Notes: generated by a model not told the origin, from the sequence alone. A stretch of DNA of 64,000 nucleotides from Dehalococcoidia bacterium (GCA_963422295.1 OY729417.1:1917537-1981536); one strand, 5' to 3'. Counted from the stretch's first letter, positions 1,162 to 57,338 are shown. Translations and numbers: made by a program.

Positions 1162-1300
1162 CTCAGCTTAGTTCTCAGAGCCTAGCTATTACGGCCTGAC
1201 ATGGCTTAGCTGTCATCCTTGCGTTGCGCGCTGCTTACTGTGCTAGTACGATATGGAAGCCGCCTGAAACCGCGCATCTAACCTTATTTGGGAGACAACC

Positions 1301-2500: not shown

Positions 2501-2543
2501 CTCCAATGAACTAATGGACTGATGAACTGCTGATGAACCACTG

Positions 2544-4688: not shown

Positions 4689-4768
4689 TATATTCGCGCA
4701 GATCTCATCGCCATTGTCATCATCATTGTAGCTATATCGTAACTATTTGGAGATCGGGGGAGGACTCC

Positions 4769-5680
4769 ATGCCATATACAGTCCGCCGCTCTTGCCGCCG
4801 CTCTTGGCTCATAGTCCCCGCGCACGACGATGCGCGCCTGTCGGACGCCGCCCGCGCCGGCGCGGATGTCGTTGTACTAGATCTTCAAGATACCGTTCAC
4901 GAAACGAAGAAGCGCGCCGCTCGCTCCAAAGTGCGCGAATCCGTTGGTAAGATGCGGAACGCCGGCTCCGAAGTGTTCGTCCGCGCGGATATCGAGCTGA
5001 TGTATGCCGATCTCGACGCGTCAGTTTGGCGAGGGCTGTCCGGTATCGTACTGCCGGGCGTTACACGCGTGGAGCAGGTGCGCGAGGCGGATGCCATTCT
5101 GTCCGAGTTCGAGTCGGAGCGCGGAGTAGTCAAGCCGCCATCAATAGGCGAAGTACGCGAGGCGGATGACCCTAGGGGGCCGGAACAGGCTCTCGAAATA
5201 CACCTTTCGCTGGACACAGGCGAGGGAAATTGGCACGCTGCAGAGCTGATCGGCGCGAGCGATCGTGTTCGTTCTGTGAGCCTAGGCCGCGCCGATCTCA
5301 CGATGGATTTACGCGCGGAGCCATCCGGCGAACTGCATATGCTGCCGTATCTCATGCAGCGGCTGATCGTCGTGTCGGGCGCCTGCGGCGTAGAGCCGGT
5401 CGGCGCATGGTGGCGCGCCGGCTCTCGCGGACTCGTTGCCTCTTCCGAAGACACGCTGCGCGCCGCCATCGCCGGACGAATGGCAGGATTCCGTGGCGCG
5501 CTGTGCATGAAGGCGGAGCAGGTGAACCCACTGCATGAGGGCTTTACGCCTTCCGCAGAAGACATCGCGCGGGCAGAGCGTGTGCTGAGACATGCGCGAC
5601 CTGATTCGCCGCGCGCCGCCGTCGCGCGTGGCCTGCTCGAATGGGCCGAGGCCTGCGCGCGGCGCGGACGCGCTTGCTGA
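4769..5680 (+). CDS. HpcH/HpaI aldolase / citrate lyase beta (CitE)-like protein, paralog 1
   Basis: GGGGGAGGA RBS upstream. N-terminal RSWLIVPAH...ADVVVLDLQDTVHETKKRAAR matches the CitE-type D-L-E-D-x-V..K..AR block with E replaced by Q. Confidence 0.75.
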   Translation: MPYTVRRSCRRSWLIVPAHDDARLSDAARAGADVVVLDLQDTVHETKKRAARSKVRESVGKMRNAGSEVFVRADIELMYADLDASVWRGLSGIVLPGVTRVEQVREADAILSEFESERGVVKPPSIGEVREADDPRGPEQALEIHLSLDTGEGNWHAAELIGASDRVRSVSLGRADLTMDLRAEPSGELHMLPYLMQRLIVVSGACGVEPVGAWWRAGSRGLVASSEDTLRAAIAGRMAGFRGALCMKAEQVNPLHEGFTPSAEDIARAERVLRHARPDSPRAAVARGLLEWAEACARRGRAC

Positions 5681-5780
5681 GAATCCTCACGGCAAGCCGA
5701 CTCCGAGTTGGATTCGCCTAGTTCATTGCTAAGCCTTTCGTCGCCAAATAGAAGCCGAACAGGATCAGGATATAGATACG

Positions 5781-6752
5781 ATGCCTCATAAGACTTCCAA
5801 GCCGCGCCGCGTCAGACGCTCCGGGTTGACCATGCCCATCAACAATCCTCGTTTCGTCGGCAGATGCTGGACGCGCGATTGCGACTATCTCAACTTCGAT
5901 TTCGAAGACTCCGTGCCGCAATCGCAGAAAGAGCACGCGCGGACACTGGTCGATTATGCCGTCGAGCAGGCGCGCAAAGGCGCGGCGGATGTTTGCGTCA
6001 GAATAAACTGCGCCTATCCAGAAGCGGATGTGGCCGCCGCCGTCCGCCACGGCGTAACACAGATCAACTTCCCCAAAGCCGAGACCGCCGAGCAGATAGT
6101 GAATCTCGACGAACTCATCACGCGCATGGAGAGGATTCAGGGAATACGTCCGGGCACTGTCAGGATAGGCGTCGCAATCGAGACGACGCTCGGTGTTGCC
6201 AACTCATACGAAATCGCCGCCTCCAGCCCGCGTATAGACTCCTTTGGGCCAGGGACCGGCTACGATATGTCGATGGATATGGGCGTGGAGATGTTCGTCG
6301 GATTCGACCAGTTCTTCTATAACCGCGGCGAGGGAGAGCTGATAGCGATGGCGTTGGGCTTGGAGCGCGACGGTGGCGTTTACATGTCGGATACGACTGG
6401 CAGCGTCGGCAACGCCGATCTAGCGCTCGACCGCGCCCGCGCCAGCCGCAAGGTCGGCCTCAGAAACGGCAGTGGTTTGCATCCCAATGTCGTCGCGCCG
6501 CAGAACGAAGGTCTGACGCCGACTGCAGACGATGTGGAACTTGCCCACCGTGTACTAGCCCGTTTCACCAAGATAGACGCAGCCGGCGAAGTCGAGGGAG
6601 ATATGGACGGCATCACCGTGGACGCATACGAAGCCGCCCGCGCCCGCGAGCTGATCGAGTGGGCCGAGCTGTGCCGTGCGCGCGACGCCGAAAAATCCGC
6701 CGCCCGCGCTCGAACTGTCGTCGAACATGAGGGCAGCGATGAGAGCGCATAG
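5781..6752 (+). CDS. HpcH/HpaI aldolase / CitE-like protein, paralog 2
   Basis: Canonical block LNFDFEDSVPQSQKEHAR, and GVAIETTLG typical of the CitE/malyl-CoA lyase family. An alternative start lies at 5829. Confidence 0.75.
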   Translation: MPHKTSKPRRVRRSGLTMPINNPRFVGRCWTRDCDYLNFDFEDSVPQSQKEHARTLVDYAVEQARKGAADVCVRINCAYPEADVAAAVRHGVTQINFPKAETAEQIVNLDELITRMERIQGIRPGTVRIGVAIETTLGVANSYEIAASSPRIDSFGPGTGYDMSMDMGVEMFVGFDQFFYNRGEGELIAMALGLERDGGVYMSDTTGSVGNADLALDRARASRKVGLRNGSGLHPNVVAPQNEGLTPTADDVELAHRVLARFTKIDAAGEVEGDMDGITVDAYEAARARELIEWAELCRARDAEKSAARARTVVEHEGSDESA

Positions 6753-6785
6753 ACCGACAAGCCGCGATATGGGAGTAAGACCGAT

Positions 6786-7709
6786 ATGAATCCGTTCGTC
6801 CGCCGATCCCACCTGCTCGTCCCCGTCCTCGACTGCGCTGCCGTCGCCGACAGCTGGAGGCACAACGCCGATGCCGTCATACTCGATCTGTCCTCCGCCC
6901 ACCCCCGTGCCGACTGTGCCGCTGCGCGCGAGATGCTTCCGGAGTCGATTCGCGCTGCGGGCAAGGGTGGCGCAGAGGTCTTCGCGCTGATAGACCCGGC
7001 CACGATCCATGCCGATATTGCCTCCGCCACGCTCGGCATCGCTGGCGTCGTATGCCCTATCCGTGTCGGCGCGGATGTCGATGTTGTCGCGTCGGCGCTG
7101 TCGGAGATGGAGCGTGACTGTGGAATCCCGCATGGGGAGCTTCGGATAATCGCGCTGCTGGATTCGGCTGTCGGTGTTTGGAACATCCGCGAGATCGTTC
7201 GTTCCAGCCCGCGAGTATGCTCCGTCGGCATCGACGAACTGCGGCTTTGCGCCGATATGGGAATAGTCCCGAACATCGAATTCGACCCGTTCGAGTATGC
7301 AAAGGGCAGGGTGATAATCGAGGCGCGCGCCGCCCATGTACAGCCCGTCGGCATGAGCCATCCATACGGCGTATTGCCCAGATTCGACGATGACGCTGAT
7401 ATATATCGGCTCGCTCTCAGATCCAAGAACCTCGGATTTGCTGGAGCGATATGCCCGCATCCGTCTTGGGTATCGCACTGCAACCGCGCCTTCGCGCCGG
7501 ATGAAGACAAGCTGGAGTTCTATCGTGAGACGCGGCGTCTATTCGCCGAGGGCATCGCGCGTGGCACCGCGGCCGTACCATATCCTGGCACCACGATGAT
7601 GATAGATGTCCCCGTCGATGAGAATGCCAGAGTCGCTCTGGAGCTATGGGAGTTATGCGCCGAACGCGAGGCGCAGAAGGCTGAGGCGTTGGCTGAGGCG
7701 GTTCAGTAG
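6786..7709 (+). CDS. HpcH/HpaI aldolase / CitE-like protein, paralog 3 (degenerate N-terminal motif)
   Basis: GGGAG RBS. Same architecture (RSHLLVPV..ADAVILDLSSAHPR...IIALLDSAVG), but the acidic ED pair reads SS. Confidence 0.65.
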   Translation: MNPFVRRSHLLVPVLDCAAVADSWRHNADAVILDLSSAHPRADCAAAREMLPESIRAAGKGGAEVFALIDPATIHADIASATLGIAGVVCPIRVGADVDVVASALSEMERDCGIPHGELRIIALLDSAVGVWNIREIVRSSPRVCSVGIDELRLCADMGIVPNIEFDPFEYAKGRVIIEARAAHVQPVGMSHPYGVLPRFDDDADIYRLALRSKNLGFAGAICPHPSWVSHCNRAFAPDEDKLEFYRETRRLFAEGIARGTAAVPYPGTTMMIDVPVDENARVALELWELCAEREAQKAEALAEAVQ

Positions 7710-7814
7710 ATGAATGAGTTGCGAAACCTACCTAGTCTGTTCGACGGGGTGATGGAATCATCGCATGTTCAGAACATATAGACTATAGATATGTATGGAT
7801 AAAGGTGCATTGGT

Positions 7815-9206
7815 ATGACAGAACGCAACTTCGAGAACCGCGCGCTTTACCACTGTGACAATCTGGATGTCTTACGCGGTATGAACAGCGAGACAGTCGA
7901 TCTGATAGCGACAGATCCGCCGTTCAACAAGAACAAAGATTTCCACGCTACTCCGGACAGCTTGTCGCAGAATGCCAAATTCGTAGATCGATGGTCTTGG
8001 AACAGGGATGTTCATGAATCTTGGATAGATCAGATCGAGGATGATTGGCCGAGTGTAAAAGCGGTTATCGAAGCCGCGCGGATAGCAAGCGGCGAGGATA
8101 TGGCCGCATTCTTGTGCTGGCTTGGTGTGCGAATAATAGAGATGCGCCGCGTTCTGAAGCCGACGGGCAGTATATATCTACACATAGACCACACTGCGCA
8201 TGCGTGGGTGAAGTCTATGATGGATGGTATATTTGGGCGTAAACAGTTTTGCAATGAAATCGTGTGGTGCTATAAATCCGGAGGGGCAAGTCCAAATAGA
8301 TACTTTAGCCGCAAGCATGATTCTATTTTATTCTATACTAGAACGGCATCTTACTTGTTCAACTCGCAGCGTGAAAAATCGTACAATCGCGGACTGAAGC
8401 CATATAGATTCCAGGGTGTGAATGAGTATAAAGATGAAATAGGGTGGGACACTCTCGTTGGTATGAAAGACTATTGGAATATCGATATGGTTGGTCGTAC
8501 TAGCGGCGAGCGTACTGGATACCCAACACAGAAGCCATTGGCATTGTACGAGCGTATTATCGAGGCATCTAGCAACGAAGGAGATATGGTTCTCGATCCT
8601 TTCGCTGGTTGCGCTACGACGCCAATTGCGGCTGAGAGGCTTGGGCGACAGTGGGTAGGTATAGATATTTGGGACGGCGCATACAAAACAGTTCTCGATC
8701 GATTACAGTCCGAACGCTTGGCAGTACCGGACGGCTCGCCTCTGCTGGAGCCTCACATGTTCACATTTGGAGATGTGCTCTACTCGAAATATGCGCCAGA
8801 ACGAACTGACGAAGGTGAGGTTGCAGCGCCTAAATTGCGTCTTAAGATACAAAGTCCTCTCGAAGTATGGCAGAGACTTTCTCGTAAGCAGATCGTAGAA
8901 TATTTAGTAGAAGCTCAAGCAAGCTCTGGTATGGTTATTTGCGGTGGTTGTGGTCGTTTACTAGAGAATGAGTTCATGCATCTGGATCATATACAGCCAA
9001 GAGCAGAGGGTGGAGCGAACGACATCACCAATCGCATTCTACTGTGCCCACCATGTAACAGTCGTAAAGGCGCAAATCTTACGCTGAGAGGTTTGCTGCG
9101 CGATAACAAACGGGTGAAATGGATGCAAGATGAGGGAAGAGCTAAACTTGCGCAAAGCAAGGCGCGCGATGTTGCGGAGCGTGTTCGGAGCGATATGATG
9201 AGCTAA
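7815..9206 (+). CDS. beta-class N4/N6 DNA methyltransferase fused to a C-terminal HNH nuclease domain
   Basis: Motif IV DLIATDPPFNKN lies before motif I VLDPFAGCATT (beta-class order), with TGYPTQKPLALYERII between. The C-terminus reads CGGCG..x..HLDHIQPRAEGGANDITNRILLCPPCNSRKG, an HNH signature. By eye the gene looks AT-richer than its flanks. Confidence 0.85.
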   Translation: MTERNFENRALYHCDNLDVLRGMNSETVDLIATDPPFNKNKDFHATPDSLSQNAKFVDRWSWNRDVHESWIDQIEDDWPSVKAVIEAARIASGEDMAAFLCWLGVRIIEMRRVLKPTGSIYLHIDHTAHAWVKSMMDGIFGRKQFCNEIVWCYKSGGASPNRYFSRKHDSILFYTRTASYLFNSQREKSYNRGLKPYRFQGVNEYKDEIGWDTLVGMKDYWNIDMVGRTSGERTGYPTQKPLALYERIIEASSNEGDMVLDPFAGCATTPIAAERLGRQWVGIDIWDGAYKTVLDRLQSERLAVPDGSPLLEPHMFTFGDVLYSKYAPERTDEGEVAAPKLRLKIQSPLEVWQRLSRKQIVEYLVEAQASSGMVICGGCGRLLENEFMHLDHIQPRAEGGANDITNRILLCPPCNSRKGANLTLRGLLRDNKRVKWMQDEGRAKLAQSKARDVAERVRSDMMS

Positions 9207-9313
9207 CGATAATAAAACATTTGTAACACCCCTATGAAACATTTACTCTGCGTAAAGCTATCTCAACAACGGCTTTGTATTGAACCCAGACAGCCCACAC
9301 AGGAGCCGCCCAC

Positions 9314-10213
9314 ATGCCTATAGAACGACACCATCCAGACCTCGACCGTCTGCTTACTACTGACCAGCCCATCGAGCAGATCGGCAGCGGATATGGCGGC
9401 AGCGGCGGCCCGACTGAAGGACCGTTGTGGTGGCATGAAGGCGGATTCCTGCTGTTTAGCGATATTCACAACAACCGCCGTATGCGCTGGGCCGAAGGGC
9501 AAGGCGCCAGCGTTCACCAACAGCCGACGAACCACGCTAACGGCCTCACGCGCGATCTCAAAGGCAGGCTCATCGCATGCGAGCATAGCTCCGGGCGCGT
9601 AACGCGGCAAGAGGCGGATGGCGAAATCACCGTCGTCGCCAACAGCTATCGCGGCAGCAGACTCAATCGCCCGAACGATGCCGTGGTGAAGTCGGACGGA
9701 AGCATCTACTTCACCAATCCGGGCGCGCCCGAACCCGGGTTGGAACTCGACTACTCCGGCGTGTATATGGTTTCGCCCGATCTCGGCTCGATCACGCTGC
9801 TGGTCAGGGACTTCCTGTTTCCCAACGGCCTCGCCTTCTCCCCGGATGAGAGCGTCTTGTACATCGATGATACCCGCAGACAGCATATCCGTGCCTTCGA
9901 TGTCCAGCCCAACGGCATGCTCGCGTTGGCATCCGACCGCGTGCTGTGCGACCTGAGTGGTGAGCGTCCGGGCGTACCGGACGGCTTGAAAGTAGATATC
10001 GAGGGTAATATCTACTGCGGCGGCTCCGGCGGCGTCTGGGTTATCGCGCCCGATGGACGACACCTAGGCACGATCGTACACGGCGAATCCGCTACGACCA
10101 ATGTTGCCTTCGGCGGGGACGACTGGCGGACGCTGTTCATCACCACTTGGAACACCGTCTGCCGCGTGCGCGTCTCGATACCCGGCATGCCAGTGCCGAC
10201 GAGCGCGGGATAG
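9314..10213 (+). CDS. SMP-30/gluconolactonase/LRE family protein
   Basis: AGGAG RBS. Beta-propeller repeat signatures EGPLWW, PNDAVVKSDGSIYFT, PNGLAFSPDE and PDGLKVD. Confidence 0.85.
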   Translation: MPIERHHPDLDRLLTTDQPIEQIGSGYGGSGGPTEGPLWWHEGGFLLFSDIHNNRRMRWAEGQGASVHQQPTNHANGLTRDLKGRLIACEHSSGRVTRQEADGEITVVANSYRGSRLNRPNDAVVKSDGSIYFTNPGAPEPGLELDYSGVYMVSPDLGSITLLVRDFLFPNGLAFSPDESVLYIDDTRRQHIRAFDVQPNGMLALASDRVLCDLSGERPGVPDGLKVDIEGNIYCGGSGGVWVIAPDGRHLGTIVHGESATTNVAFGGDDWRTLFITTWNTVCRVRVSIPGMPVPTSAG

Positions 10214-10280
10214 CGCAGGCAAAGAGGGCGGAAAGAAAAGATAGAAGACGGGGAGCAGACAGGCTTGCCGCTATGAGGAG

Positions 10281-11654
10281 CTAGGAACTGCTTATTTTGG
10301 GCTTTCTGACGAACAGCATCAGCGCGGCGCCGAGAAAGCTGAGCGCGGCAAATGCGGTGAACGGGGCGATGTATGTTCCTGTGGTGTCGAACATGTAGCC
10401 TGCGAACAGAGGCGCGAAGATCATGGCAATGTTCATCGGCAGCTGCGATACGCCCATGATGGTGGCGAACGCTTTGCGTCCGAAATAGTCGCCGCGAATC
10501 GCCGTCGTGAGTGGGCTGCGCCCGCCGAATCCCATGCCGTATAGCAGCGCGAACAGGTATGCCATTGGCGCGCTGTCGAACAGCGCGATTATCAGAATCC
10601 CCACACCCTGAAGCATCAGGAAGAACGCTATCATCAGCGTTTTGGGAAGTCTGTCGGCGAAGTATCCGGATACTAACTGCGTCGGCAGCGCGACTATCGT
10701 ATAGGCCAGCACCACTGTGCCAGCGCCGGTCAGGGACATTCCTGTATCTGTCAGCTTCGGCACCAGATGGAGCGCGAGTGTTACGATGGATACGCTCGAT
10801 GCCACCTGCGCTATGGTAAGCATCCAGAATGCAGGTGTTTTGAGCGCCTGCCAGACGGTGAAATCCGGCTCGTCGTCTTCGTCGGTCGTGGTCTGCGTCT
10901 GCTCGTTCGCCGTAGGATTTGCACCATCTCCATCGGGTCTCAGCCCCATATCCTCCGGGCGCGAGCGTATCGCCTTTGTCGCAGGCCCGACTATCACCAG
11001 CAGCAGGATGCCGATGCCCAGCGCGGCTCCGTCGAACCCTGCGCGTTCTATCGCAAACGCTAGAACCGGAACCAGCAGGCCGCCCAGATGTATTCCCGAC
11101 ATCGCAGACGCCATCGCCATCGTTCGCTTACGGCTGAACCAGTTGTTGACCATCGCAATTAGCGCCAGCCAGCCGCCGAGACCAGACCCCAGCGTTACGA
11201 ACATGTATGCGCCGTAGAAATGGATCAGCGGCTCGTCCACAGACTGGAACGGCAGGAATCGCAGGGTAAAATCTAGCCATGACAGCATCCCTGTCGCGCC
11301 GAGCGTATCTATTTGCGACAGCCAGATGAAGCCCAGCCCCATCATGGTGTATCCGATAAGCACCATGCGTCGCGTGCCGACCCTGTCCACTAGCACGCCT
11401 TCTATCGGCCCCAGCACCGCGCCCTCTACGCGCGCCAGCGAGAAGGCGAGCGAGAGCTGAGTTCGCGTCCATGCGTACTGGCGCTCCAGCGCGACCAGCA
11501 TCGTTCCGAGACCTTGGAACACAGTCAGCGACATGAGCGTCAGCATGAGCGCGGCGAGGGCGACGAGCCACCAGCCATAGAATACGCCGCGTGTGTCGGA
11601 TGCGATTTTTCTAGGCGAGCTTATCGCGCGCCGGACAGAATCGACTCTGGACAT
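10281..11654 (-). CDS. MFS transporter
   Basis: 457 aa with about 12 hydrophobic segments and a central hydrophilic loop. Close paralog of 32622-34025 (shared FYGWW and W.RTQLSLAF...EG..LGPIEG.L.DR.GTRR blocks). Confidence 0.85.
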   Translation of the reverse strand: MSRVDSVRRAISSPRKIASDTRGVFYGWWLVALAALMLTLMSLTVFQGLGTMLVALERQYAWTRTQLSLAFSLARVEGAVLGPIEGVLVDRVGTRRMVLIGYTMMGLGFIWLSQIDTLGATGMLSWLDFTLRFLPFQSVDEPLIHFYGAYMFVTLGSGLGGWLALIAMVNNWFSRKRTMAMASAMSGIHLGGLLVPVLAFAIERAGFDGAALGIGILLLVIVGPATKAIRSRPEDMGLRPDGDGANPTANEQTQTTTDEDDEPDFTVWQALKTPAFWMLTIAQVASSVSIVTLALHLVPKLTDTGMSLTGAGTVVLAYTIVALPTQLVSGYFADRLPKTLMIAFFLMLQGVGILIIALFDSAPMAYLFALLYGMGFGGRSPLTTAIRGDYFGRKAFATIMGVSQLPMNIAMIFAPLFAGYMFDTTGTYIAPFTAFAALSFLGAALMLFVRKPKISSS

Positions 11655-11952
11655 GTCCTATCTATTATGACTGCAAATGCGTGCTTTTGCCGAATGGGTC
11701 GAGACAGAGAGGTGAACTATCTATATATATACTGAATATATACTGACCAGCCACCTTAGTCAGTCCGAGATTATCACGAAAGTCGTAGAAGATGATAGAC
11801 AGTGGTAATTGACACTGCATCGATATAAGAGTATAACGATGAACAATTGTGCGGAATCGTCACGCGGCGATGGAAGGGATCAGTGAATTTCATGCACTTC
11901 TATGATGAACAAAATATATGAATTATGAATATGGAGATAATGGAGATATAGG

Positions 11953-13947
11953 ATGAGACGAATACTTCGTCCGACTGTTTTTATAACTACTGCAATGCTG
12001 ACACTTGCGCTGCTGTTCTCGGTTGCGTGCAGCGACGACGAGCCTGAGCCTGAGCCGACGGCTGCGCCAGCTCCGACATCCACGCCTGAGCCGACAGTGG
12101 CTGCGGCACAACCGACTGTCGCTCCGGCACAGCTTACTCCTCCCCCCCTTGCTCCGACATCTGTGCCTTCCGCCCCGTCTCAGCCGACGGCGATACCGGT
12201 GCCGATAGCGACGACGGGTGGGGAAGCTCCAGAACCCAAGAATGCGCAGGGAACCATAGTTTTCGCGCAGTCGAGCTTGGCATGTAATCCCGGCGCAGGC
12301 ACTGTCTTCTGCGGACAGTACGATGCTGTAGCTTGGGGTGTTGGTGAAGACCTTTTCACATGGAGATGGCGTGATGACAGCACTGTCGAATATGCTGCAG
12401 GCCAGCTCGCCGAAGGTTGGGAACTCGCATCCGACGGCCTGAGCGTTAATATCGACATCAGGCAGGGAGTCGAGTTTCACAAAGGCTGGGGCCCGATGAC
12501 CGCGCAGGATGTGGCATGGACTTATAATCAGGTCAACCCACTCATTACGACGCATAGCATCGCGCCGAGCGCATCGTATTTCTCCACTCTGTTCGGAGAG
12601 AACTCTGCGGTTGCTACTAGCGATTCCACCGTTGAGTACACATTCGCCGCAGTCGATTCTCATTGGCACACCTATATGATGAACGGCAACGGCTATGTCG
12701 GCCTTGTCGTGCATCCGGAGGCGGCGCAGGAGCAGAACGGCGAGGACTGGATGCGCGAGAATTTCGTTGGCACTGGCCCATTCGAGGTGGATGAGTGGAT
12801 ACGGGATGACCGCGCCGTGTTCACCAAGTTCGAAGATCACTGGCAGTTCGACCCTCAGATAGATCGAGTGATAATACGGTCGATGCCAGAAGATGCGACG
12901 CGCGTCGCTGCGCTGAAGACTGGTGAGCTGGACGCTGTCGAACTCGCCATCAAGAGCGTGCCGGAGGCGCTGGACGCCGGATTCGCCGGCACATCGTCCG
13001 GGAATGCTAGTCAGCAAGGTGTCATCTTCTCAGGAAACCTGTGGGAGACGCACAACGCGTTGACTGGCGAGGACCTCAATACTCCCGCCAACGGCGTTTA
13101 CGCCCGAGATATCGAGTGGATCGGCAACCCGTATAGGGGCTCCGACGGCAACGACCCGGATGCGCTGGCTTGCCCGGCAGGGGCCGACCCGATGGACATG
13201 GCCCAGAGCTGCGGCGATATGGAGCAGGCGAGACTCGTCCGCTGGGCAGTCGCTATGGCTATCGACAAAGAAGAGATCAACGAACATCTTCTCAACGATC
13301 TAGGGTGGCCTGTACATGTCGGATATGTGGACGAGAAGAGCGAGTTCTGGGACACTAAGTGGGAGTATCCATACGACCCAGCTATGGCGGAAGAGTATCT
13401 GGACAAGGCCGGATTCCCCAAAGGTGACAACGGCGTACGGTTCGAGATGCCGCTGTTTATAAGCTCTGGTCACACAGGCGGACTGGGCGAGGAGATTGGC
13501 GACGCCATTGGCGGCATGATGACCGATATCGGCATCAAGACTGAGGTGCTGAAGTTCCCCTATGCTGTCTATCGCCCCGGCCTAGTAAACCGCAGCGCGA
13601 CCGTACCGAGACTCACATCCGGCGACGACGGTCAGACCATATACCCGTTCGACTGGCCCAAGGGCATCGAGGAATCCAGCCTCTCCAGAGGCGGCTACTG
13701 CATGTGCTACGAGACGACATGGATTAGCGAGATATACCTCGATGTGGCTGAAGAGAACGATCCGGAGAAGCGGATAGAACTAAACCGTCGATACTTCGAC
13801 TTGATGCACTTCTGGGCGCTCAAGCCGGGCGTGGTGGCTGTGCCAAATCTGACCATCTACAACCCGAACTCCATCGAGGAGTGGGTCATGGAGCCGACGC
13901 CGTTTGGTACTTCGGCATTCTGGAACATCGTCCCGAAGGCGCGATAA
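11953..13947 (+). CDS. ABC transporter substrate-binding lipoprotein (family 5, peptide/nickel type)
   Basis: Signal peptide with lipobox LLFSVAC, then a roughly 70-aa Pro/Thr/Ala linker, then a family-5 SBP-sized domain. Two Dpp/Opp-type permease genes follow. Confidence 0.85.
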   Translation: MRRILRPTVFITTAMLTLALLFSVACSDDEPEPEPTAAPAPTSTPEPTVAAAQPTVAPAQLTPPPLAPTSVPSAPSQPTAIPVPIATTGGEAPEPKNAQGTIVFAQSSLACNPGAGTVFCGQYDAVAWGVGEDLFTWRWRDDSTVEYAAGQLAEGWELASDGLSVNIDIRQGVEFHKGWGPMTAQDVAWTYNQVNPLITTHSIAPSASYFSTLFGENSAVATSDSTVEYTFAAVDSHWHTYMMNGNGYVGLVVHPEAAQEQNGEDWMRENFVGTGPFEVDEWIRDDRAVFTKFEDHWQFDPQIDRVIIRSMPEDATRVAALKTGELDAVELAIKSVPEALDAGFAGTSSGNASQQGVIFSGNLWETHNALTGEDLNTPANGVYARDIEWIGNPYRGSDGNDPDALACPAGADPMDMAQSCGDMEQARLVRWAVAMAIDKEEINEHLLNDLGWPVHVGYVDEKSEFWDTKWEYPYDPAMAEEYLDKAGFPKGDNGVRFEMPLFISSGHTGGLGEEIGDAIGGMMTDIGIKTEVLKFPYAVYRPGLVNRSATVPRLTSGDDGQTIYPFDWPKGIEESSLSRGGYCMCYETTWISEIYLDVAEENDPEKRIELNRRYFDLMHFWALKPGVVAVPNLTIYNPNSIEEWVMEPTPFGTSAFWNIVPKAR

Positions 13948-22619: not shown

Positions 22620-22715
22620 GCGTGTTCGATGTCGCGGCTTGGGCGCAGGCCGATTCGCCCAGTTTCGCCTCACAGGAGTCGTTCGATCGGCAGAGTCATA
22701 AATCGGAGGCTTTCG

Positions 22716-23498
22716 ATGGCGACTAGTTTGATGAGTCAGAGTATGGTGATCGATAAGAAAGTGCAGCGCTCATCGCCGCTGCCCAGACCACCCCTTGGAC
22801 CGGAGTCTATGCAGCAAGAACCTACTAACACCGAAACTCGCTCTATTCTGAGGACTCATTTCGAGGGTCGTTCTGATGTGTTAGTGGGGGGTGAGGGTTA
22901 TCTGTGTTTCGACACAGCGATTCGGGATGATTGGCTGATTCCCGACTGCATAGTTGCGTTCGGAGTAGATCCCGAGACGGTTCGAGAGCGTATGGGATAT
23001 GTGATAAACGAGGTTGGCAAGCCACCGGACTTCGTGCTGGAGATAGCGTCTCGGAGTACTGGCAGGGCGGACTATGGCCGCAAGCGTATTTTGTATGCGA
23101 AATACGGAGTAGCAGAGTTTTGGCGCAGCGACTATACAGGCGGGATGTATCACGACAAGCCATTGGCAGGCGATATGCTGGTAGATGGCGAATACATACC
23201 GATAGAGTTGGAGTATATATCTGACGGTATGATTCGAGGATACAGTAATGTATTGGAACTGTATCTATGCTGGGAGTATGGCCGTCTGCGTTTCTACGAC
23301 CCGAAGAGGGGTGAATATCTGCGCAGCCTGGGAGAACAGGCTATCCGCGCTGATGTGGAGGCTGTTCGCGCTGATGCGGAGGCTGTTCGCGCTGATGCCG
23401 AGGCTATCCGCGCTGATGCGGAGGCTGTTCGCGCTGATGCGGAGGCTGCCGAAGTTAGACGACTGAGGAGAATCCTTCGTGAGCGAGGTCTGGAGTAG
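22716..23498 (+). CDS. Uma2 (DUF820) family PD-(D/E)xK nuclease-like protein, copy 1 (260 aa, 5 heptads)
   Basis: LIPDCIVAFG...PPDFVLEIASRST...KRILYAKYGVAEFWRSD matches the Uma2 PD..E-I-x-S..K..Y..G..E-[YF]-W pattern. The start is set at MATSL by analogy with copies 2-4, which share the same RBS. Confidence 0.8.
   Translation: MATSLMSQSMVIDKKVQRSSPLPRPPLGPESMQQEPTNTETRSILRTHFEGRSDVLVGGEGYLCFDTAIRDDWLIPDCIVAFGVDPETVRERMGYVINEVGKPPDFVLEIASRSTGRADYGRKRILYAKYGVAEFWRSDYTGGMYHDKPLAGDMLVDGEYIPIELEYISDGMIRGYSNVLELYLCWEYGRLRFYDPKRGEYLRSLGEQAIRADVEAVRADAEAVRADAEAIRADAEAVRADAEAAEVRRLRRILRERGLE
23340..23444 (+). repeat. 5 x 21-bp in-frame tandem repeat (A-[VI]-R-A-D-x-E heptads)
   Basis: gct[ag]t[ct]cgcgctgatg[tc]ggag units read directly from the sequence. 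Confidence 0.95.
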
Positions 23499-23551
23499 TT
23501 CTGTAAGCTCTTGCGCGCAGGCGGAGCGGAGTCATAAATCGGAGGCTTTCG

Positions 23552-24313
23552 ATGGCGACTAGTTTGATGAGTCAGAGTATGGTGATCGATAAGAAAGTGC
23601 AGCGCTCATCGCCGCTGCCCAGACCACCCCTTGGACCGGAGTCTATGCAGCAAGAACCTGCCAACACCGAAACTCGCTCTATTCTGAGGACTCATTTCGA
23701 GGGTCGTTCTGATGTGTTAGTGGGGGGTGAGGGTTATCTGTGTTTCGACACAGCGATTCGGGATGATTGGCTGATTCCCGATTGCATAGTTGCGTTCGGA
23801 GTAGATCCCGAGACGATTCGAGAGCGCATGGGATATGTGATAAACGAGGTTGGCAAGCCACCGGACTTCGTGCTGGAGATAGCGTCTCGGAGTACTGGCA
23901 GGGCGGACTATGGTCGCAAGCGTATTTTGTATGCTAAATACGGAGTAGCAGAGTTTTGGCGCAGCGACTATACAGGCGGGATGTATCACGACAAGCCATT
24001 GGCAGGCGATATGCTGGTAGATGGCGAATACATACCGATAGAGTTGGAGTATATATCTGAAGGTGTGATTCGAGGATACAGCAAAGTATTGGAGCTGTAT
24101 CTATGCTGGGAGTATGGCCGTCTGCGTTTCTACGACCCGAAGAGGGGTGAATATCTGCGCAGCCTGGGAGAACAGGCTATCCGCGCGGATGCCGAGGCTG
24201 TTCGCGCTGATACGGAGGCTGTCCGCGCTGATGCGGAGGCTATCCGCGCTGATGCCGAGGCTGCTGAAGTTAGACGTCTGAGGAGAATCCTTCGTGAGCG
24301 AGGTCTGGAGTAG
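23552..24313 (+). CDS. Uma2 family nuclease-like protein, copy 2 (253 aa, 4 heptads)
   Basis: Same motifs as copy 1, with GGAGG RBS. The heptad repeat occupies 24176-24259. Confidence 0.8.
   Translation: MATSLMSQSMVIDKKVQRSSPLPRPPLGPESMQQEPANTETRSILRTHFEGRSDVLVGGEGYLCFDTAIRDDWLIPDCIVAFGVDPETIRERMGYVINEVGKPPDFVLEIASRSTGRADYGRKRILYAKYGVAEFWRSDYTGGMYHDKPLAGDMLVDGEYIPIELEYISEGVIRGYSKVLELYLCWEYGRLRFYDPKRGEYLRSLGEQAIRADAEAVRADTEAVRADAEAIRADAEAAEVRRLRRILRERGLE
24176..24259 (+). repeat. 4 x 21-bp in-frame tandem repeat
   Basis: Read directly; encodes AIRADAE AVRADTE AVRADAE AIRADAE. Confidence 0.95.
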
Positions 24314-24366
24314 TTCTGCAAGCTCTTGCGGGCAGGCGGAGCGGAGTCATAAATCGGAGGCTTTCG

Positions 24367-25107
24367 ATGGCGACTAGTTTGATGAGTCAGAGTATGGTGA
24401 CCGATAAGAAAGTGCAGCGCTCATCGCCGCTGCCCAGACCACCCCTTGGACCGGAGTCTATGCAGCAAGAACCTGCCAACACCGAAACTCGCTCTATCCT
24501 GAGGGTTCACTTCGAGGGTCGTTCTGATGTGTTAGTAGGGGGTGAGGGTTATCTGTGTTTCGACACAGCGATTCGGGATGATTGGCTGATTCCCGATTGC
24601 ATAGTCGCGTTCGGAGTAGATCCCGAGACGATTCGAGAGCGCATGGGATATGTGATAAACGAGGTTGGCAAGCCACCGGACTTCGTGTTGGAGATAGCGT
24701 CTCGGAGTACTGGCAGGGCGGACTATGGTCGCAAGCGTATTTTGTATGCGAAATACGGAGTAGCAGAGTTTTGGCGCAGCGACTATACAGGCGGGATGTA
24801 TCACGACAAGCCATTGGCAGGCGATATGCTGGTAGATGGCGAATACATACCGATAGAGTTGGAGTATATATCTGACGGTATGATTCGAGGATACAGTAAT
24901 GTATTGGAGCTGTATCTATGCTGGGAGTACGGCCGTCTGCGTTTCTACGACCCGAAGAGGGGTGAATATCTGCGCAGCCTGGGAGAACAGGCTATCCGTG
25001 CTGATGTGGAGGCTGTTCGCGCTGATGCGGAGGCTGTTCGCGCTGATGCCGAGGCTGCCGAAGTTAGACGACTGAGGAGAATCCTTCGTGAGCGAGGTCT
25101 GGAGTAG
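24367..25107 (+). CDS. Uma2 family nuclease-like protein, copy 3 (246 aa, 3 heptads)
   Basis: Same motifs as copy 1, with GGAGG RBS. The heptad repeat occupies 24991-25053. Confidence 0.8.
   Translation: MATSLMSQSMVTDKKVQRSSPLPRPPLGPESMQQEPANTETRSILRVHFEGRSDVLVGGEGYLCFDTAIRDDWLIPDCIVAFGVDPETIRERMGYVINEVGKPPDFVLEIASRSTGRADYGRKRILYAKYGVAEFWRSDYTGGMYHDKPLAGDMLVDGEYIPIELEYISDGMIRGYSNVLELYLCWEYGRLRFYDPKRGEYLRSLGEQAIRADVEAVRADAEAVRADAEAAEVRRLRRILRERGLE
24991..25053 (+). repeat. 3 x 21-bp in-frame tandem repeat
   Basis: Read directly; encodes AIRADVE AVRADAE AVRADAE. Confidence 0.95.
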
Positions 25108-25160
25108 TTCTGTAAGCTCTTGCGGGCAGGCGGAGCAGAGTCATAAATCGGAGGCTTTCG

Positions 25161-25838
25161 ATGGCGACTAGTCTGACGAGTCAGAGTATGGTGACCGATA
25201 AGAAAGTGCAGCGCTCATCGCCGCTGCCCAGACCACCCCTTGGACCGGAGTCTATGCAGCAAGAACCTGCCAACACCGAAACTCGCTCTATTCTGAGGGT
25301 TCACTTCGAGGGTCGTTCTGATGTGTTAGTAGGGGGTGAGGGTTATCTGTGTTTCGACACAGCGATTCGGGATGATTGGCTGATTCCCGATTGCATAGTC
25401 GCGTTCGGAGTAGATCCCGAGACGATTCGAGAGCGCATGGGATATGTGATAAACGAGGTTGGCAAGCCACCGGACTTCGTGTTGGAGATAGCGTCTCGGA
25501 GTACTGGCAGGGCGGACTATGGTCGCAAGCGTATTTTGTATGCGAAATACGGAGTAGCAGAGTTTTGGCGCAGCGACTATACAGGCGGGATGTATCACGA
25601 CAAGCCATTGGCAGGCGATATGCTGGTAGATGGCGAATACATACCGATAGAGTTGGAGTATATATCTGACGGTGTGATTCGAGGATACAGTAATGTATTG
25701 GAGCTGTATCTATGCTGGGAGTATGGTCGTTTGCGTTTCTACGACCCGAAGAGGGGTGAATATCTGCGCAACCTGGGAGAACAGGCTGCCGATGTAAGAC
25801 GGCTGAGGGAACGCCTGCGCGAGTTAGAGCGGGAGTAG
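25161..25838 (+). CDS. Uma2 family nuclease-like protein, copy 4 (225 aa, no heptad repeat, divergent tail)
   Basis: The core is identical to the other copies, but the tail reads EQAADVRRLRERLRELERE. Confidence 0.8.
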   Translation: MATSLTSQSMVTDKKVQRSSPLPRPPLGPESMQQEPANTETRSILRVHFEGRSDVLVGGEGYLCFDTAIRDDWLIPDCIVAFGVDPETIRERMGYVINEVGKPPDFVLEIASRSTGRADYGRKRILYAKYGVAEFWRSDYTGGMYHDKPLAGDMLVDGEYIPIELEYISDGVIRGYSNVLELYLCWEYGRLRFYDPKRGEYLRNLGEQAADVRRLRERLRELERE

Positions 25839-26707: not shown

Positions 26708-27970
26708 TCACATCGCTGCGACTAGCTTGTCGCCGAACTCTGGCGGGTCGCTGCGTTCTATAACCAGATCCCGCGCTTCGTGGAATTGCATGAAGTCGCG
26801 CATGGCTCGCGCTACCGACGACGCCAGCCGCGCGCTTGGTCGGACGCCAGGTTCCAAATACAGATTTTTCAGCCGAAGAAGCCCGGTCTTGCGCTCCAGC
26901 TTCGGATCGAAGCGGCCAACGAGACGATCGCGGTCGAGAATCGGAAGGCAGAAATAGCCCCAGATTCGTTCTGGCCCAGGTTTGTAGCATTCTAGCACTT
27001 GTGAGAACTTCCAAAAGCTCATGTCACGGCCTTTGGCCCAGAACAGGCTGTCGAAGGGGTTCAAGAATGTAGTACGGCGCGGCTTCGATTCTCCGTCCAC
27101 CGCCTGTTCCAGCAGCGACATATTGTCTCTATGTATGAGCAGATCGTGTGTCTGCTTATCAGCTAGAACAGCTCGTATAGGTACGAACACGCCGTCTGCT
27201 ATGAGCTCGTCTATAAACGGTTTTGTTTCAGTGCGTTTCATGTGCATATAGTCGCCAACCTGCGCCGGGGCGCATACGCCGAATGCCTTCATCGACATCT
27301 CCAGCAGATACTTGAAAGCCTCCTCTTCGGTCGGCTCGCCGAGATCTACCCATGCGGGCAGCACCCTGTCGCGCAGGTCGTATATCCGCTGAAAGTTCAC
27401 GCGGTTGGCGATGGCAAGTTCCCCTGTATCGTATAGATGTTCGAGGGCTATCTTAGCGTGATCCCAATTCCACCAGCTGCCCGGCGCTCTCTGCCCGGTT
27501 CTGAAATCCGCCGGTCGGGCAGGCCCATTGGCTGTTACATGTTCGAGTACCGATTCTACGAACTTGCGATTGTCCTGATCGGCTATCCAGCGTCTATGCC
27601 AGCTTCCCCTGCCATTGGCGCGTCTGCGCATCATCGGCATCAGATACCGGTATTTGCTCAGCGGAACGATGCATGCGGCGTGCGCCCAGTATTCGAATAG
27701 GCGGCGCGCATTGTGTGGGGAGTTGCTGCCGTCGTCGAACAGTAGGCGGTCGAGGTGTGCGGGGGCATAGCTGCCGAGACGGCTCCACAGCGTCAGATAC
27801 TGAGCGCGGTTGACCACCTGAAGCGTGTCTATCTGCACCCAGCCGATGCGTTCGATTGCGGAGTATATCTCCTCGACGCTCGGATTCCGTGAGGCAGAAG
27901 CGGGGTTCGACAGCCCTTGCGCATGGATGGCAATGGCTCGAACCGCGCTCAGCGGATATGTAGATGTCAA
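26708..27970 (-). CDS. YcaQ/AlkZ-like winged-helix DNA glycosylase family protein (DUF1006)
   Basis: IGWVQIDTLQVVNRAQYLTLWSR contains a Q-phi-D motif. FEYWAHAACIVP and LPILDRDRLVGRFDPK are family blocks. Confidence 0.75.
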   Translation of the reverse strand: MTSTYPLSAVRAIAIHAQGLSNPASASRNPSVEEIYSAIERIGWVQIDTLQVVNRAQYLTLWSRLGSYAPAHLDRLLFDDGSNSPHNARRLFEYWAHAACIVPLSKYRYLMPMMRRRANGRGSWHRRWIADQDNRKFVESVLEHVTANGPARPADFRTGQRAPGSWWNWDHAKIALEHLYDTGELAIANRVNFQRIYDLRDRVLPAWVDLGEPTEEEAFKYLLEMSMKAFGVCAPAQVGDYMHMKRTETKPFIDELIADGVFVPIRAVLADKQTHDLLIHRDNMSLLEQAVDGESKPRRTTFLNPFDSLFWAKGRDMSFWKFSQVLECYKPGPERIWGYFCLPILDRDRLVGRFDPKLERKTGLLRLKNLYLEPGVRPSARLASSVARAMRDFMQFHEARDLVIERSDPPEFGDKLVAAM

Positions 27971-57262: not shown

Positions 57263-57338
57263 GCCCCTGTAGCTCAGGAGGATAGAGCATCGGTTTCCTA
57301 AACCGAGTGCCCCGGTTCGAGTCCGGGCAGGGGTACCA
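57263..57338 (+). tRNA. tRNA-Arg (anticodon CCU)
   Basis: Hand-folded cloverleaf. Acceptor GCCCCTG/CAGGGGT (G1:U72 wobble), D-arm GCTC/GAGC, anticodon stem TCGGT/ACCGA with loop TTCCTAA, T-arm CCCGG-TTCGAGT-CCGGG, discriminator A, and CCA encoded. Confidence 0.9.

What the first reader, a model, noticed from the sequence alone, without database searches (positions are those of the whole stretch)
22693..25838. Four head-to-tail Uma2-type nuclease genes forming a 5-4-3-0 heptad-repeat ladder
Seen in the sequence:
- Four near-identical genes (22716-23498, 23552-24313, 24367-25107, 25161-25838) are separated by near-identical 53-nt spacers, each ending in a GGAGG RBS.
- The products are 260, 253, 246 and 225 aa.
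- The only length difference among copies 1-3 is the number of 21-bp units encoding A-[VI]-R-A-D-x-E: 5, 4 and 3, decreasing in genomic order.
- Copy 4 has none and ends with a different helical tail.
- The substitutions are mosaic. N-terminal variants group copies 1+2 (VIDKK, LRTHF) against 3+4 (VTDKK, LRVHF). C-terminal variants group 1+3 (DGMIRGYSN, ADVE) against 2 (EGVIRGYSK) and 4.

Established knowledge: the core PD..(n)..E-I-x-S..K..Y..G..EFW pattern is that of the Uma2/DUF820 PD-(D/E)xK family. Its biological role is unknown, and it is massively expanded in Cyanobacteria, Chloroflexota and Deinococcota.

Inference:
- The mosaic pattern points to ongoing unequal crossing-over or gene conversion.
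- The graded coiled-coil tails could act as length variants, for example different oligomer geometry or spacing of paired nuclease heads, or as a contingency locus.
- I am not aware of such an ordered length series having been described for this family.
Basis: partly seen in the sequence, partly recalled or inferred. Interest (0 to 1): 0.75.

Follow-up and report, generated by a model that had tools for sequence, protein, structure and literature searches.

The report
Tandem Uma2 nuclease genes, variable tails
Four nearly identical copies of a putative nuclease gene of unknown function sit head to tail and differ mainly in how many 7-residue repeats lengthen a C-terminal helix, but the neat 5-4-3-0 order is a coincidence of this strain, because sister strains carry 4-5-5-3-0 and 2-3-4-0.

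Summary
Four intact Uma2 (PF05685) genes lie at 22716-25838, separated by 53-nt spacers that carry a ribosome-binding site. They hold 5, 4, 3 and 0 in-frame 21-bp repeats. Predicted structures show one globular Uma2 fold followed by a single helix of 52 residues in copy 1 and 20 in copy 4.

- Unequal exchange and gene conversion are supported. The cores differ by 1-3% but the last 54 nt of copy 4 differ by 26%, many site pairs are incompatible across strains, and one strain has two identical cores with different tails.
- The ordered ladder is not a conserved feature. Three contigs of the same species (flanks 98-99.7% identical) show 5-4-3-0, 4-5-5-3-0 and 2-3-4-0.
- Assembly artefact is unlikely, because independent contigs carry the array between the same flanking genes.
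- The cores are under purifying selection (pN/pS about 0.2).

Tandem Uma2 cassettes, including a four-gene array, were described in 2005 and 2009. What the searched literature does not describe is a large subfamily, found here only in Dehalococcoidia/Chloroflexota genomes. Its members end in a variable-length, heptad-periodic helix with a conserved cap, and its tandem paralogs repeatedly differ in tail length. Function is still unknown. Interest is modest.

The parts
22690..22715 (+). Leader shared with the spacers (26 nt, includes the GGAGG ribosome-binding site). It marks the 5' edge of the duplicated unit.
   Evidence: The sequence upstream of copy 1 matches the 3' half of each spacer, and similarity stops further upstream.
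22716..23498 (+). Uma2 copy 1, 260 aa: globular PD-(D/E)xK-type domain (about residues 29-196) plus a 52-residue C-terminal helix.
   Evidence: ORF. Pfam PF05685, E 1.7e-10. AlphaFold mean pLDDT 89.9, helix at residues 205-256. Foldseek matches 9y1l, 6okh, 3ot2 and 1wdj.
23340..23444 (+). Five in-frame 21-bp units encoding A-[IV]-R-A-D-x-E (unit types a b c d b).
23499..23551 (+). Spacer 1, 53 nt, ending in the GGAGG ribosome-binding site.
   Evidence: No plus-strand promoter-like or terminator-like site.
23552..24313 (+). Uma2 copy 2, 253 aa.
   Evidence: Identical to database protein P0001.
24176..24259 (+). Four in-frame 21-bp units (types e f g h).
24314..24366 (+). Spacer 2, 53 nt.
24367..25107 (+). 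Uma2 copy 3, 246 aa.
   Evidence: Its repeat array (i b c) is identical to that of the penultimate copy in sister contig L001.
24991..25053 (+). Three in-frame 21-bp units (types i b c).
25108..25160 (+). Spacer 3, 53 nt.
25161..25838 (+). Uma2 copy 4, 225 aa, with no repeat unit and a 20-residue C-terminal helix.
   Evidence: AlphaFold mean pLDDT 86.4, helix at residues 205-224.
25785..25838 (+). Diverged terminal cap of copy 4, 74% nt identity to the caps of copies 1-3. It marks the 3' limit of the homogenised tract.
   Evidence: The same cap is conserved in the last copy of sister contigs L001 and L003.

Best explanation
This is a tandemly amplified cassette of one subfamily of Uma2 (COG4636/DUF820) putative PD-(D/E)xK nucleases. 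In this survey the subfamily was found only in Dehalococcoidia/Chloroflexota genomes.

Shown:
- A unit of about 0.8 kb (a 26-nt leader with the ribosome-binding site, the gene, and a 27-nt trailer) has been duplicated head to tail between an acyl-CoA dehydrogenase gene and an FAA-hydrolase gene.
- The cores are kept 97-99% alike by gene conversion and unequal exchange. Purifying selection keeps all copies intact.
- The 21-bp repeats near the 3' end gain and lose whole units, always in frame. As a result both copy number and repeat number differ between strains whose flanks are about 99% identical.
- The descending 5-4-3-0 order is an accident of this strain. The one positional constant in this species is that the last copy has no repeats and keeps an older, diverged cap.

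Predicted: each protein is one globular nuclease-like head followed by a single long amphipathic helix. That helix consists of a variable rod of Ala/Val/Ile-Arg-Asp-Glu heptads and a conserved leucine-zipper-like cap (AEAE-x-RRLRE-x-LRRL in the subfamily).

Inferred:
- The genes are co-transcribed.
- The helix mediates oligomerisation or partner binding through the cap. The rod is a length-tolerant spacer adding about 10.5 A per heptad, giving helices of roughly 30 to 78 A.
- The proteins act as stand-alone nucleases of the toxin, defence or selfish-element type proposed for the family.
For: Genes, spacers and repeats.

Family membership: Pfam above cutoff. D77, E109, S112, D119, K123 and Y127 are invariant in the 28- and 33-sequence alignments of the window copies and their closest homologues. 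The fold matches the four solved Uma2 structures.

The array is real and variable. Contigs L001 and L002, both from ENA sample ERZ21742408, carry it between the same flanking genes, with 5 copies (4-5-5-3-0) and 4 copies (2-3-4-0). A Logan contig (L003) starts 26 nt upstream of the last copy. Flanks are 98.1-99.7% identical to the window.

Concerted evolution:
- Core divergence is 1.3-3.2%, against 26% in the last 54 nt of copy 4.
- Copies 4 and 5 of L001 have identical 624-nt cores but different tails.
- 46 of 120 informative site pairs fail the four-gamete test, giving a minimum of 3 recombination events.
- A W1-type repeat array sits on a W2-type core, and at position 2, in L001.

Selection: pN/pS is 0.13-0.23 in all six pairs.

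Generality:
- 105 of 119 homologue clusters have a tail of 30-93 aa after the RFYD motif. Where the tails are visibly repetitive, the period is 7 or 14 residues.
- 70 of the 105 have the cap motif.
- 643 clusters at 50% identity match with E<=1e-30.
- 12 of 80 loci from other species hold 2-4 same-strand copies. These include two four-copy arrays in OY282441.1, with cores 95.6-97.9% identical and tails of different, unordered lengths.

No partner gene: no neighbour is conserved across the 80 loci.

Helix lengths.

No plus-strand promoter-like or terminator-like site in the spacers, and G+C content is not anomalous.

Literature: tandem duplication is the only recurrent neighbourhood of COG4636 genes, with one four-gene run in Crocosphaera (PMC551604). 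[quoted passage not shown]
Against: - No experiment or transcript data are available. Nuclease activity, co-transcription and oligomerisation are inferred.
- A permutation test for spatial clustering of incompatible sites was not significant (p=0.29). With about 2% divergence the recombination signal rests on few sites.
- L002 is a low-quality contig with scattered 1-3 nt indels. Its repeat differences are nevertheless clean multiples of 21.
- Neutral slippage and selection for tail-length diversity cannot be separated with these data. Lineage-specific repeats arising repeatedly at the same position in many species could reflect selection rather than mere tolerance.
- The PADLOC hits to the defence candidate PDC-S03 are partial (E about 1e-8).
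Confidence: 0.72

Rival explanations
1. Tail-length diversity is itself selected, whatever the order. The cassette supplies several isoforms of one nuclease whose rod length sets the reach or spacing of the heads, or the distance to a partner bound by the cap. Fast repeat turnover diversifies this between strains, for example under pressure from phages or mobile elements.
For: - Strain-level variation in copy number and repeat number, including two configurations in one sample.
- Independent arrays in another species whose near-identical cores carry different tails.
- Unrelated, lineage-specific repeats (ARADAEA, ERDSAIY, 14-mers) at the same position across the subfamily.
- Cores under purifying selection.
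- Weak similarity to a PADLOC defence candidate.
Against: - In-frame minisatellites are unstable without any selection.
- No relatives on viral contigs, and no defence-island or partner genes around the loci.
- Most loci (68 of 80) hold a single copy.
- No test of selection on length was possible.
Confidence: 0.2
2. The ordered ladder is functional: a graded 5-4-3-0 series, arranged in genomic order, acts as a set of molecular rulers.
For: The monotonic order in this window. Predicted helices of 52 residues in copy 1 and 20 in copy 4, with 45 and 38 inferred for copies 2 and 3 from their repeat numbers.
Against: Sister contigs of the same species read 4-5-5-3-0 and 2-3-4-0. Arrays in OY282441.1 encode 249/264/249/270 and 245/251/262/254 aa. 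The chance of a monotonic order is 1 in 12 per array, and 1 of the 5 arrays with four or more copies is monotonic.
Confidence: 0.04
3. Assembly artefact: strain variants of a single gene were strung together by the assembler.
For: Near-identical 0.8-kb units are the kind of sequence that assemblers mishandle. The short-read Logan contig breaks exactly at the array.
Against: - Two further contigs carry multi-copy arrays anchored in the same unique flanks on both sides or on the downstream side.
- Every junction has the same 53-nt spacer.
- The last copy has a distinct cap and unique downstream sequence.
- The whole array is 3.1 kb, short enough for single long reads to span. That the source assemblies are long-read is inferred from the 2.67-Mb contig and the contig naming, not verified.
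Confidence: 0.03

Closest known systems
Uma2 / COG4636 / DUF820 (PF05685) putative PD-(D/E)xK nucleases; solved structures 1wdj, 3ot2, 6okh, 9y1l
   Same: - Pfam hit above the curated cutoff.
- Same fold by Foldseek.
- Same conserved residues as the PD-EXX-K active-site variant: D77, E109 and, by inference, the migrated lysine K123.
- Stand-alone genes inserted among unrelated housekeeping genes.
- Proliferation into many paralogs per genome.
   Different: The solved proteins are about 190 aa and lack a long tail. This subfamily adds a conserved N-terminal LPxPP...MQQ segment and a C-terminal helix of 20 to more than 60 residues with heptad-periodic repeats and a conserved cap. In this survey it was found only in Dehalococcoidia/Chloroflexota genomes, not in Cyanobacteria.
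Tandem paralog cassettes of Uma2 genes (Feder & Bujnicki 2005, PMC551604; Makarova et al. 2009, PMC2701414)
   Same: Head-to-tail runs of closely related Uma2 genes with no partner gene. A four-gene run was reported in Crocosphaera watsonii WH8501. The family was proposed to act as a solo toxin or selfish element.
   Different: Those reports do not mention C-terminal repeats or length differences between the tandem copies (the word 'coiled' does not occur in PMC551604). They also had no strain-level comparison showing copy-number and repeat-number turnover.
Repeat-length rulers in Type I restriction-modification HsdS subunits (from my own knowledge: EcoR124I versus EcoR124II, where 2 versus 3 TAEL repeats change the target spacer from 6 to 7 nt)
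   Same: An in-frame short repeat inside a helical or coiled-coil segment of a DNA-enzyme subunit, whose copy number changes by unequal exchange.
   Different: In HsdS the repeat lies between two DNA-recognition domains of one subunit, which works with HsdM and HsdR. Here the helix is terminal, there is one globular domain, no methyltransferase or other partner is nearby, and no effect on specificity is known.
In-frame minisatellite variation in tandem paralog families of bacterial coiled-coil proteins (from my own knowledge: streptococcal M and M-like proteins, mycoplasma Vlp)
   Same: Tandem paralogs, in-frame repeat gain and loss, gene conversion between copies, and size variants between strains.
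   Different: Those are surface antigens under immune selection. The Uma2 proteins have no signal peptide or anchor evident in the sequence (not formally tested) and are presumed cytoplasmic nucleases.

Membership tests
Uma2 / DUF820 (PF05685, COG4636) | Match to the Pfam family model above its curated gathering score | tested here: met
   41.1 and 42.1 bits against a cutoff of 27, E about 1e-10. Only model positions 62-131 of 172 align.
Uma2 / DUF820 (PF05685, COG4636) | Restriction-endonuclease-like fold as in the solved family members | tested here: met
   AlphaFold mean pLDDT 89.9. The only Foldseek PDB hits with E<=1e-3 are 9y1l, 6okh, 3ot2 and 1wdj, with target-normalised TM 0.52-0.70.
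Uma2 / DUF820 (PF05685, COG4636) | PD-EXX-K active-site variant: invariant Asp and Glu, with the Lys moved to the following helix (PMC551604) | tested here: met
   P76-D77, E109, S112, D119, K123 and Y127 are invariant in the 28- and 33-sequence alignments of the window copies and their closest homologues. The same E..S..D...K...Y..EYW pattern aligns to 9y1l. The assignment of K123 as the catalytic Lys is an inference.
Uma2 / DUF820 (PF05685, COG4636) | Nuclease activity | not testable with these tools
   I found no biochemical characterisation of any family member in the searched literature.
Classical contingency (phase-variable) locus | A simple repeat whose length change shifts the reading frame or promoter spacing and so switches expression | tested here: not met
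   All repeat differences within and between strains are multiples of 21 bp and keep the frame. There is no repeat in the spacers or the leader.
Classical contingency (phase-variable) locus | Repeat number differs between closely related strains | tested here: met
   5-4-3-0, 4-5-5-3-0 and 2-3-4-0 in contigs with 98-99.7% identical flanks.
Type II toxin-antitoxin module | An adjacent small antitoxin gene in the same operon | tested here: not met
   The spacers are 53 nt and hold no ORF. The flanks encode an acyl-CoA dehydrogenase and an FAA hydrolase. No neighbour is conserved across 80 loci.
Restriction-modification system (including the HsdS-type repeat ruler) | A linked methyltransferase or specificity subunit | tested here: not met
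   None is found in the neighbourhood of the window or among the recurrent neighbours at 80 related loci.
PADLOC phage-defence candidate PDC-S03 | Full-length match to the candidate's models, and a defence-island context | tested here: inconclusive
   Four PDC-S03 models hit at E 4e-8 to 8e-4, but only over residues 72-145. The context is metabolic genes, not defence genes. I know of no experimental validation of the candidate (from my own knowledge).

The most novel reading that the evidence does not exclude
The variable rod is a selected molecular spacer. Each cassette would encode a set of nuclease isoforms whose head-to-cap distance differs in steps of about 10 A (roughly 3 bp of B-DNA). 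If the helices pair antiparallel, or tether the heads to a common partner through the conserved cap, the isoforms would cut or bind at different spacings. Rapid repeat turnover would then diversify that specificity between strains. This would be a nuclease counterpart of the HsdS repeat ruler, and a first functional handle on the 20-year-old Uma2 puzzle.
Probability: 0.1. Interest if true: 0.75.

Novelty: new variant of a known kind. Interest (0 to 1): 0.35.

Why it matters
Uma2/COG4636 is among the most proliferated bacterial gene families with no known function. It makes up more than 2% of the genes in Gloeobacter (PMC551604) and has had solved structures since 2004.

This locus shows that one large Dehalococcoidia-centred branch has added a length-variable helix with a conserved cap. 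It also shows that tandem copies of this branch keep their nuclease-like cores under purifying selection while tail length and copy number turn over between strains that are about 99% identical.

That gives experimenters a natural allelic series (0, 2, 3, 4 and 5 heptads on the same head) for testing what the tail does. It is also a clean case of concerted evolution with a sharp conversion boundary. It does not reveal the function, and the eye-catching ladder itself carries no information.

Tried and rejected
- The exact-sequence look-up of copy 1 and of P0001 found no contig on record. Cluster members gave the sister contigs instead.
- An exact 27-nt leader pattern found nothing in the JGI metagenome contigs.
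- No relative of the protein is encoded on IMG/VR viral contigs, so a phage-borne origin was dropped.
- NCBIfam has no model for the proteins. Pfam finds nothing in the tail alone.
- A search for conserved neighbour genes at 80 loci found only large metabolic families at varying positions, plus an antisense artefact ORF. Operon-partner, antitoxin and methyltransferase ideas were therefore rejected.
- A PHI-like permutation test for recombination was not significant, so the recombination argument rests on four-gamete incompatibilities and the conversion boundary instead.
- Pseudogene decay was rejected: the ORFs are intact and pN/pS is about 0.2.
- Foreign-island origin was rejected on composition: G+C is 0.53-0.54 against 0.52-0.59 in the flanks.
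- No literature on PDC-S03 was found.
Full report
**1. The observation**

The region holds four same-strand ORFs at 22716-23498, 23552-24313, 24367-25107 and 25161-25838, encoding 260, 253, 246 and 225 aa. ORF listing extends the first to an upstream ATG at 22629. The start at 22716 is the one preceded by GGAGG-CTTTCG and aligned with the other three copies.

The three spacers are each 53 nt and differ at three positions. Only their last 26 nt are shared with the sequence upstream of copy 1, which places the 5' edge of the duplicated unit about 26 nt before the start codon.

Tandem Repeats Finder reports period-21 arrays of 5.3, 4.3 and 3.3 copies. A codon-phased pattern gives exactly 5, 4, 3 and 0 units encoding A-[IV]-R-A-D-x-E. 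Copies 1-3 differ in length only by whole units.

Copy 4 lacks the units. Its 17-residue end (AADVRRLRERLRELERE) is homologous to that of copies 1-3 (AAEVRRLRRILRERGLE) but only 74% identical at the DNA level over the last 54 nt, whereas the 624-nt cores differ by 1.3-3.2%. The description is therefore accurate.

**2. Family and fold**

Copies 1 and 4 were scanned, and both pass the Pfam Uma2 (PF05685) gathering score, although only the central third of the model aligns. NCBIfam has no model for them.

An AlphaFold model built on 28 homologues is confident (mean pLDDT 89.9). It shows a mixed alpha/beta domain (residues about 29-196) followed by one uninterrupted helix at residues 205-256. Copy 4 gives the same domain with a helix at 205-224.

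The only significant PDB matches are the four solved Uma2/DUF820 proteins: 9y1l, 6okh, 3ot2 and 1wdj. None has an assigned function.

D77, E109, S112, D119, K123 and Y127 are invariant across the subfamily alignment. This fits the PD-EXX-K active-site variant defined for COG4636 by Feder and Bujnicki (PMC551604). Membership is therefore met on sequence, fold and motif. Activity cannot be tested here.

**3. Is the array real, and is the ladder a feature?**

The four products are recorded on one 2.67-Mb contig. The same 90% cluster has members on three other contigs, which I fetched.

| Contig | Source | Uma2 copies | Repeat numbers |
|---|---|---|---|
| Window | 2.67-Mb contig | 4 | 5-4-3-0 |
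| L001 | ENA ERZ21742408, ctg4486l | 5 | 4-5-5-3-0 |
| L002 | same sample, ctg3459l | 4 | 2-3-4-0 |
| L003 | Logan short-read contig | last copy only | 0 |

- L001 starts in the acyl-CoA dehydrogenase gene, carries its five copies, then continues into the same FAA-hydrolase and AlkZ-like genes.
- L002 has the same flanks. It is peppered with 1-3 nt indels that also break its housekeeping genes, so it is a low-quality sequence. Its repeat differences are nevertheless clean multiples of 21.
- L003 begins 26 nt upstream of the last, repeat-less copy. This is where a short-read assembler would be expected to break.

Flanks are 98.1-99.7% identical to the window, so these are strains of one species.

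The array is thus independently confirmed. It varies in copy number and in repeat number, even within one sample. The descending order is not conserved. The only positional constant is that the last copy has no repeats and keeps its own cap.

A monotonic order of four distinct values is expected once in twelve arrays by chance. One of the five arrays with four or more copies that I examined is monotonic.

**4. How the array evolves**

*Within the window.* 26 core sites vary. Seven support (1,2)(3,4), all within nt 35-322, and only one (nt 514) supports (1,3)(2,4). On its own this is thin evidence for mosaicism.

*With the sister strains added* the picture becomes clear.
- Among ten cores, 46 of 120 informative site pairs fail the four-gamete test, giving a minimum of three recombination events.
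- Copies 4 and 5 of L001 have identical 624-nt cores although one carries three repeats with the 1-3-type cap and the other carries the copy-4 cap.
- The last copy in L003 combines a copy-4-like 5' end with copy-1/2-like states at nt 139-171.
- The repeat array of W3 (types i b c) is identical to that of the penultimate L001 copy.
- A W1-type repeat array (a b b d b, against a b c d b) sits in L001 at position 2, on a W2-like core.

A permutation test for clustering of incompatibilities was not significant (p=0.29), as expected with so few sites.

The sharp drop from about 98% to 74% identity at the cap of copy 4 marks the 3' limit of homogenisation.

pN/pS is 0.13-0.23 for all six pairs, so all four cores are held under purifying selection and are not decaying.

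The spacers contain no plus-strand promoter-like or terminator-like site, and composition does not stand out from the flanks. Co-transcription is plausible but not shown.

**5. How general is this?**

The closest homologues (about 45-65% identity) all come from Dehalococcoidia/Chloroflexota MAGs, including SAR202. The window's species is not among the GTDB representatives.

- Of 119 homologue clusters, 105 have the RFYD motif followed by a tail of 30-93 residues.
- Where the tail is visibly repetitive, the period is 7 or 14 residues. The units are lineage-specific (ARADAEA, ERDSAIY, EARAHRMEAERAEA and others).
- Most tails end in a conserved AEAE-x-RRLRE-x-LRRL-like cap.
- An exhaustive profile search finds 643 clusters at 50% identity with E<=1e-30. 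Full-length matches range from about 236 to 340 aa.
- Twelve of 80 loci from other species hold two to four same-strand copies.
- One genome (OY282441.1) has two separate four-copy arrays. Their cores are 95.6-97.9% identical and their products are 249/264/249/270 and 245/251/262/254 aa, differing in the tail and not ordered.
- No neighbour gene recurs across the loci, and no relative lies on viral contigs.

**6. What the tail is**

In the window's unit A-[IV]-R-A-D-x-E, the Val/Ile and the x position (Ala/Val/Thr) fall 3 and 4 residues apart, as the a and d positions of a heptad do. Arg and Asp fall at the flanking e and g positions. The cap has Val/Leu/Leu/Leu at 3-4-3 spacing. This is read directly from the sequence.

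In many homologues the rod is almost purely Ala/Arg/Glu/Asp, while the cap stays amphipathic. I read the tail as a length-tolerant rod plus a conserved interaction cap.

Each heptad would add about 10.5 A. The helices are then roughly 78, 68, 57 and 30 A for copies 1-4 (plus helix geometry; the lengths for copies 2 and 3 are inferred from their repeat numbers). Whether the helices pair, and in which orientation, could not be computed here.

**7. Comparison with what is known**

- Feder and Bujnicki (PMC551604) showed that COG4636 genes insert seemingly at random. The only recurrent neighbour is another family member. One four-gene run exists in Crocosphaera. They suggested the family behaves as a selfish, possibly recombinogenic element.
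- Makarova et al. [quoted passage not shown]
- Omelchenko et al. (PMC1274311) counted 15 paralogs in Thermus thermophilus.
- PADLOC lists weakly similar models as the unvalidated candidate PDC-S03.

The cassette itself is therefore known. What I did not find in the searched literature:
- the tail-bearing Dehalococcoidia-centred subfamily;
- the recurrent tail-length differences among tandem copies;
- the strain-level turnover.

The defining context of that system is absent here: there are not two recognition domains flanking the repeat, and there are no HsdM/HsdR partners.

**8. Verdict**

This is a real, correctly described locus and a confirmed Uma2 member, with well-supported concerted evolution and repeat slippage. 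The ordered ladder is a coincidence. The locus is not a phase-variable contingency locus in the classical sense. Whether tail-length diversity is selected remains open; I put that at about 20%, and the stronger ruler reading at about 10%. Function remains inferred from family-level proposals. Interest is modest (0.35): it is a useful natural allelic series for a long-unsolved family, but not a surprise to a specialist.

Noticed in passing
window 22843-23163 (-), 22881-23153 (-) and the equivalent positions in each unit (e.g. 24494-24814, 25288-25608): Antisense ORFs of 106 and 90 aa recur in most units (in copy 2 the 106-aa one is cut to 60 aa), and a minus-strand promoter-like and a terminator-like site recur in every unit. 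They are most likely by-products of duplicating one sequence four times, but this was not tested.
   Followed up: no
window 22629-22715: An in-frame upstream ATG would extend copy 1 to 289 aa, starting just after the acyl-CoA dehydrogenase stop codon. The other copies have no such extension, and the ribosome-binding site favours 22716.
   Followed up: partly
window 22800-25600: GC skew is strongly positive (about +0.22) across the whole array, against roughly 0 to +0.1 in the flanks. It probably reflects the G-rich codon usage of this one gene repeated four times.
   Followed up: no
L002 (ENA ERZ21742408 ctg3459l) 1-12842: This contig has scattered 1-3 nt insertions that split the acyl-CoA dehydrogenase, AlkZ-like and Uma2 genes. 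It looks like a low-coverage long-read contig, so its frameshifts should not be read as pseudogenes.
   Followed up: partly
L003 (Logan ERR11641160) 1-30: The short-read contig starts 26 nt upstream of the last Uma2 copy, that is, at the array boundary. This is typical of repeat-induced assembly breaks, so short-read MAGs will under-report such arrays.
   Followed up: no
L026 5129-8518 and L030 3340-6717 (both from OY282441.1, uncultured Dehalococcoidia): One genome carries two separate four-copy arrays of this subfamily, each with near-identical cores and tails of different length. In L026 some copies carry an extra HWLA(T/A)ERQAREA segment.
   Followed up: partly
window 26708-27970 (-): An AlkZ-like DNA glycosylase gene (PF06224, E 5e-55) lies two genes downstream of the array and is syntenic in all sister contigs. 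No link to the Uma2 genes is evident at other loci.
   Followed up: partly
window 57263-57335 (+): A single tRNA gene is the only Rfam match in the 64-kb window.
   Followed up: no
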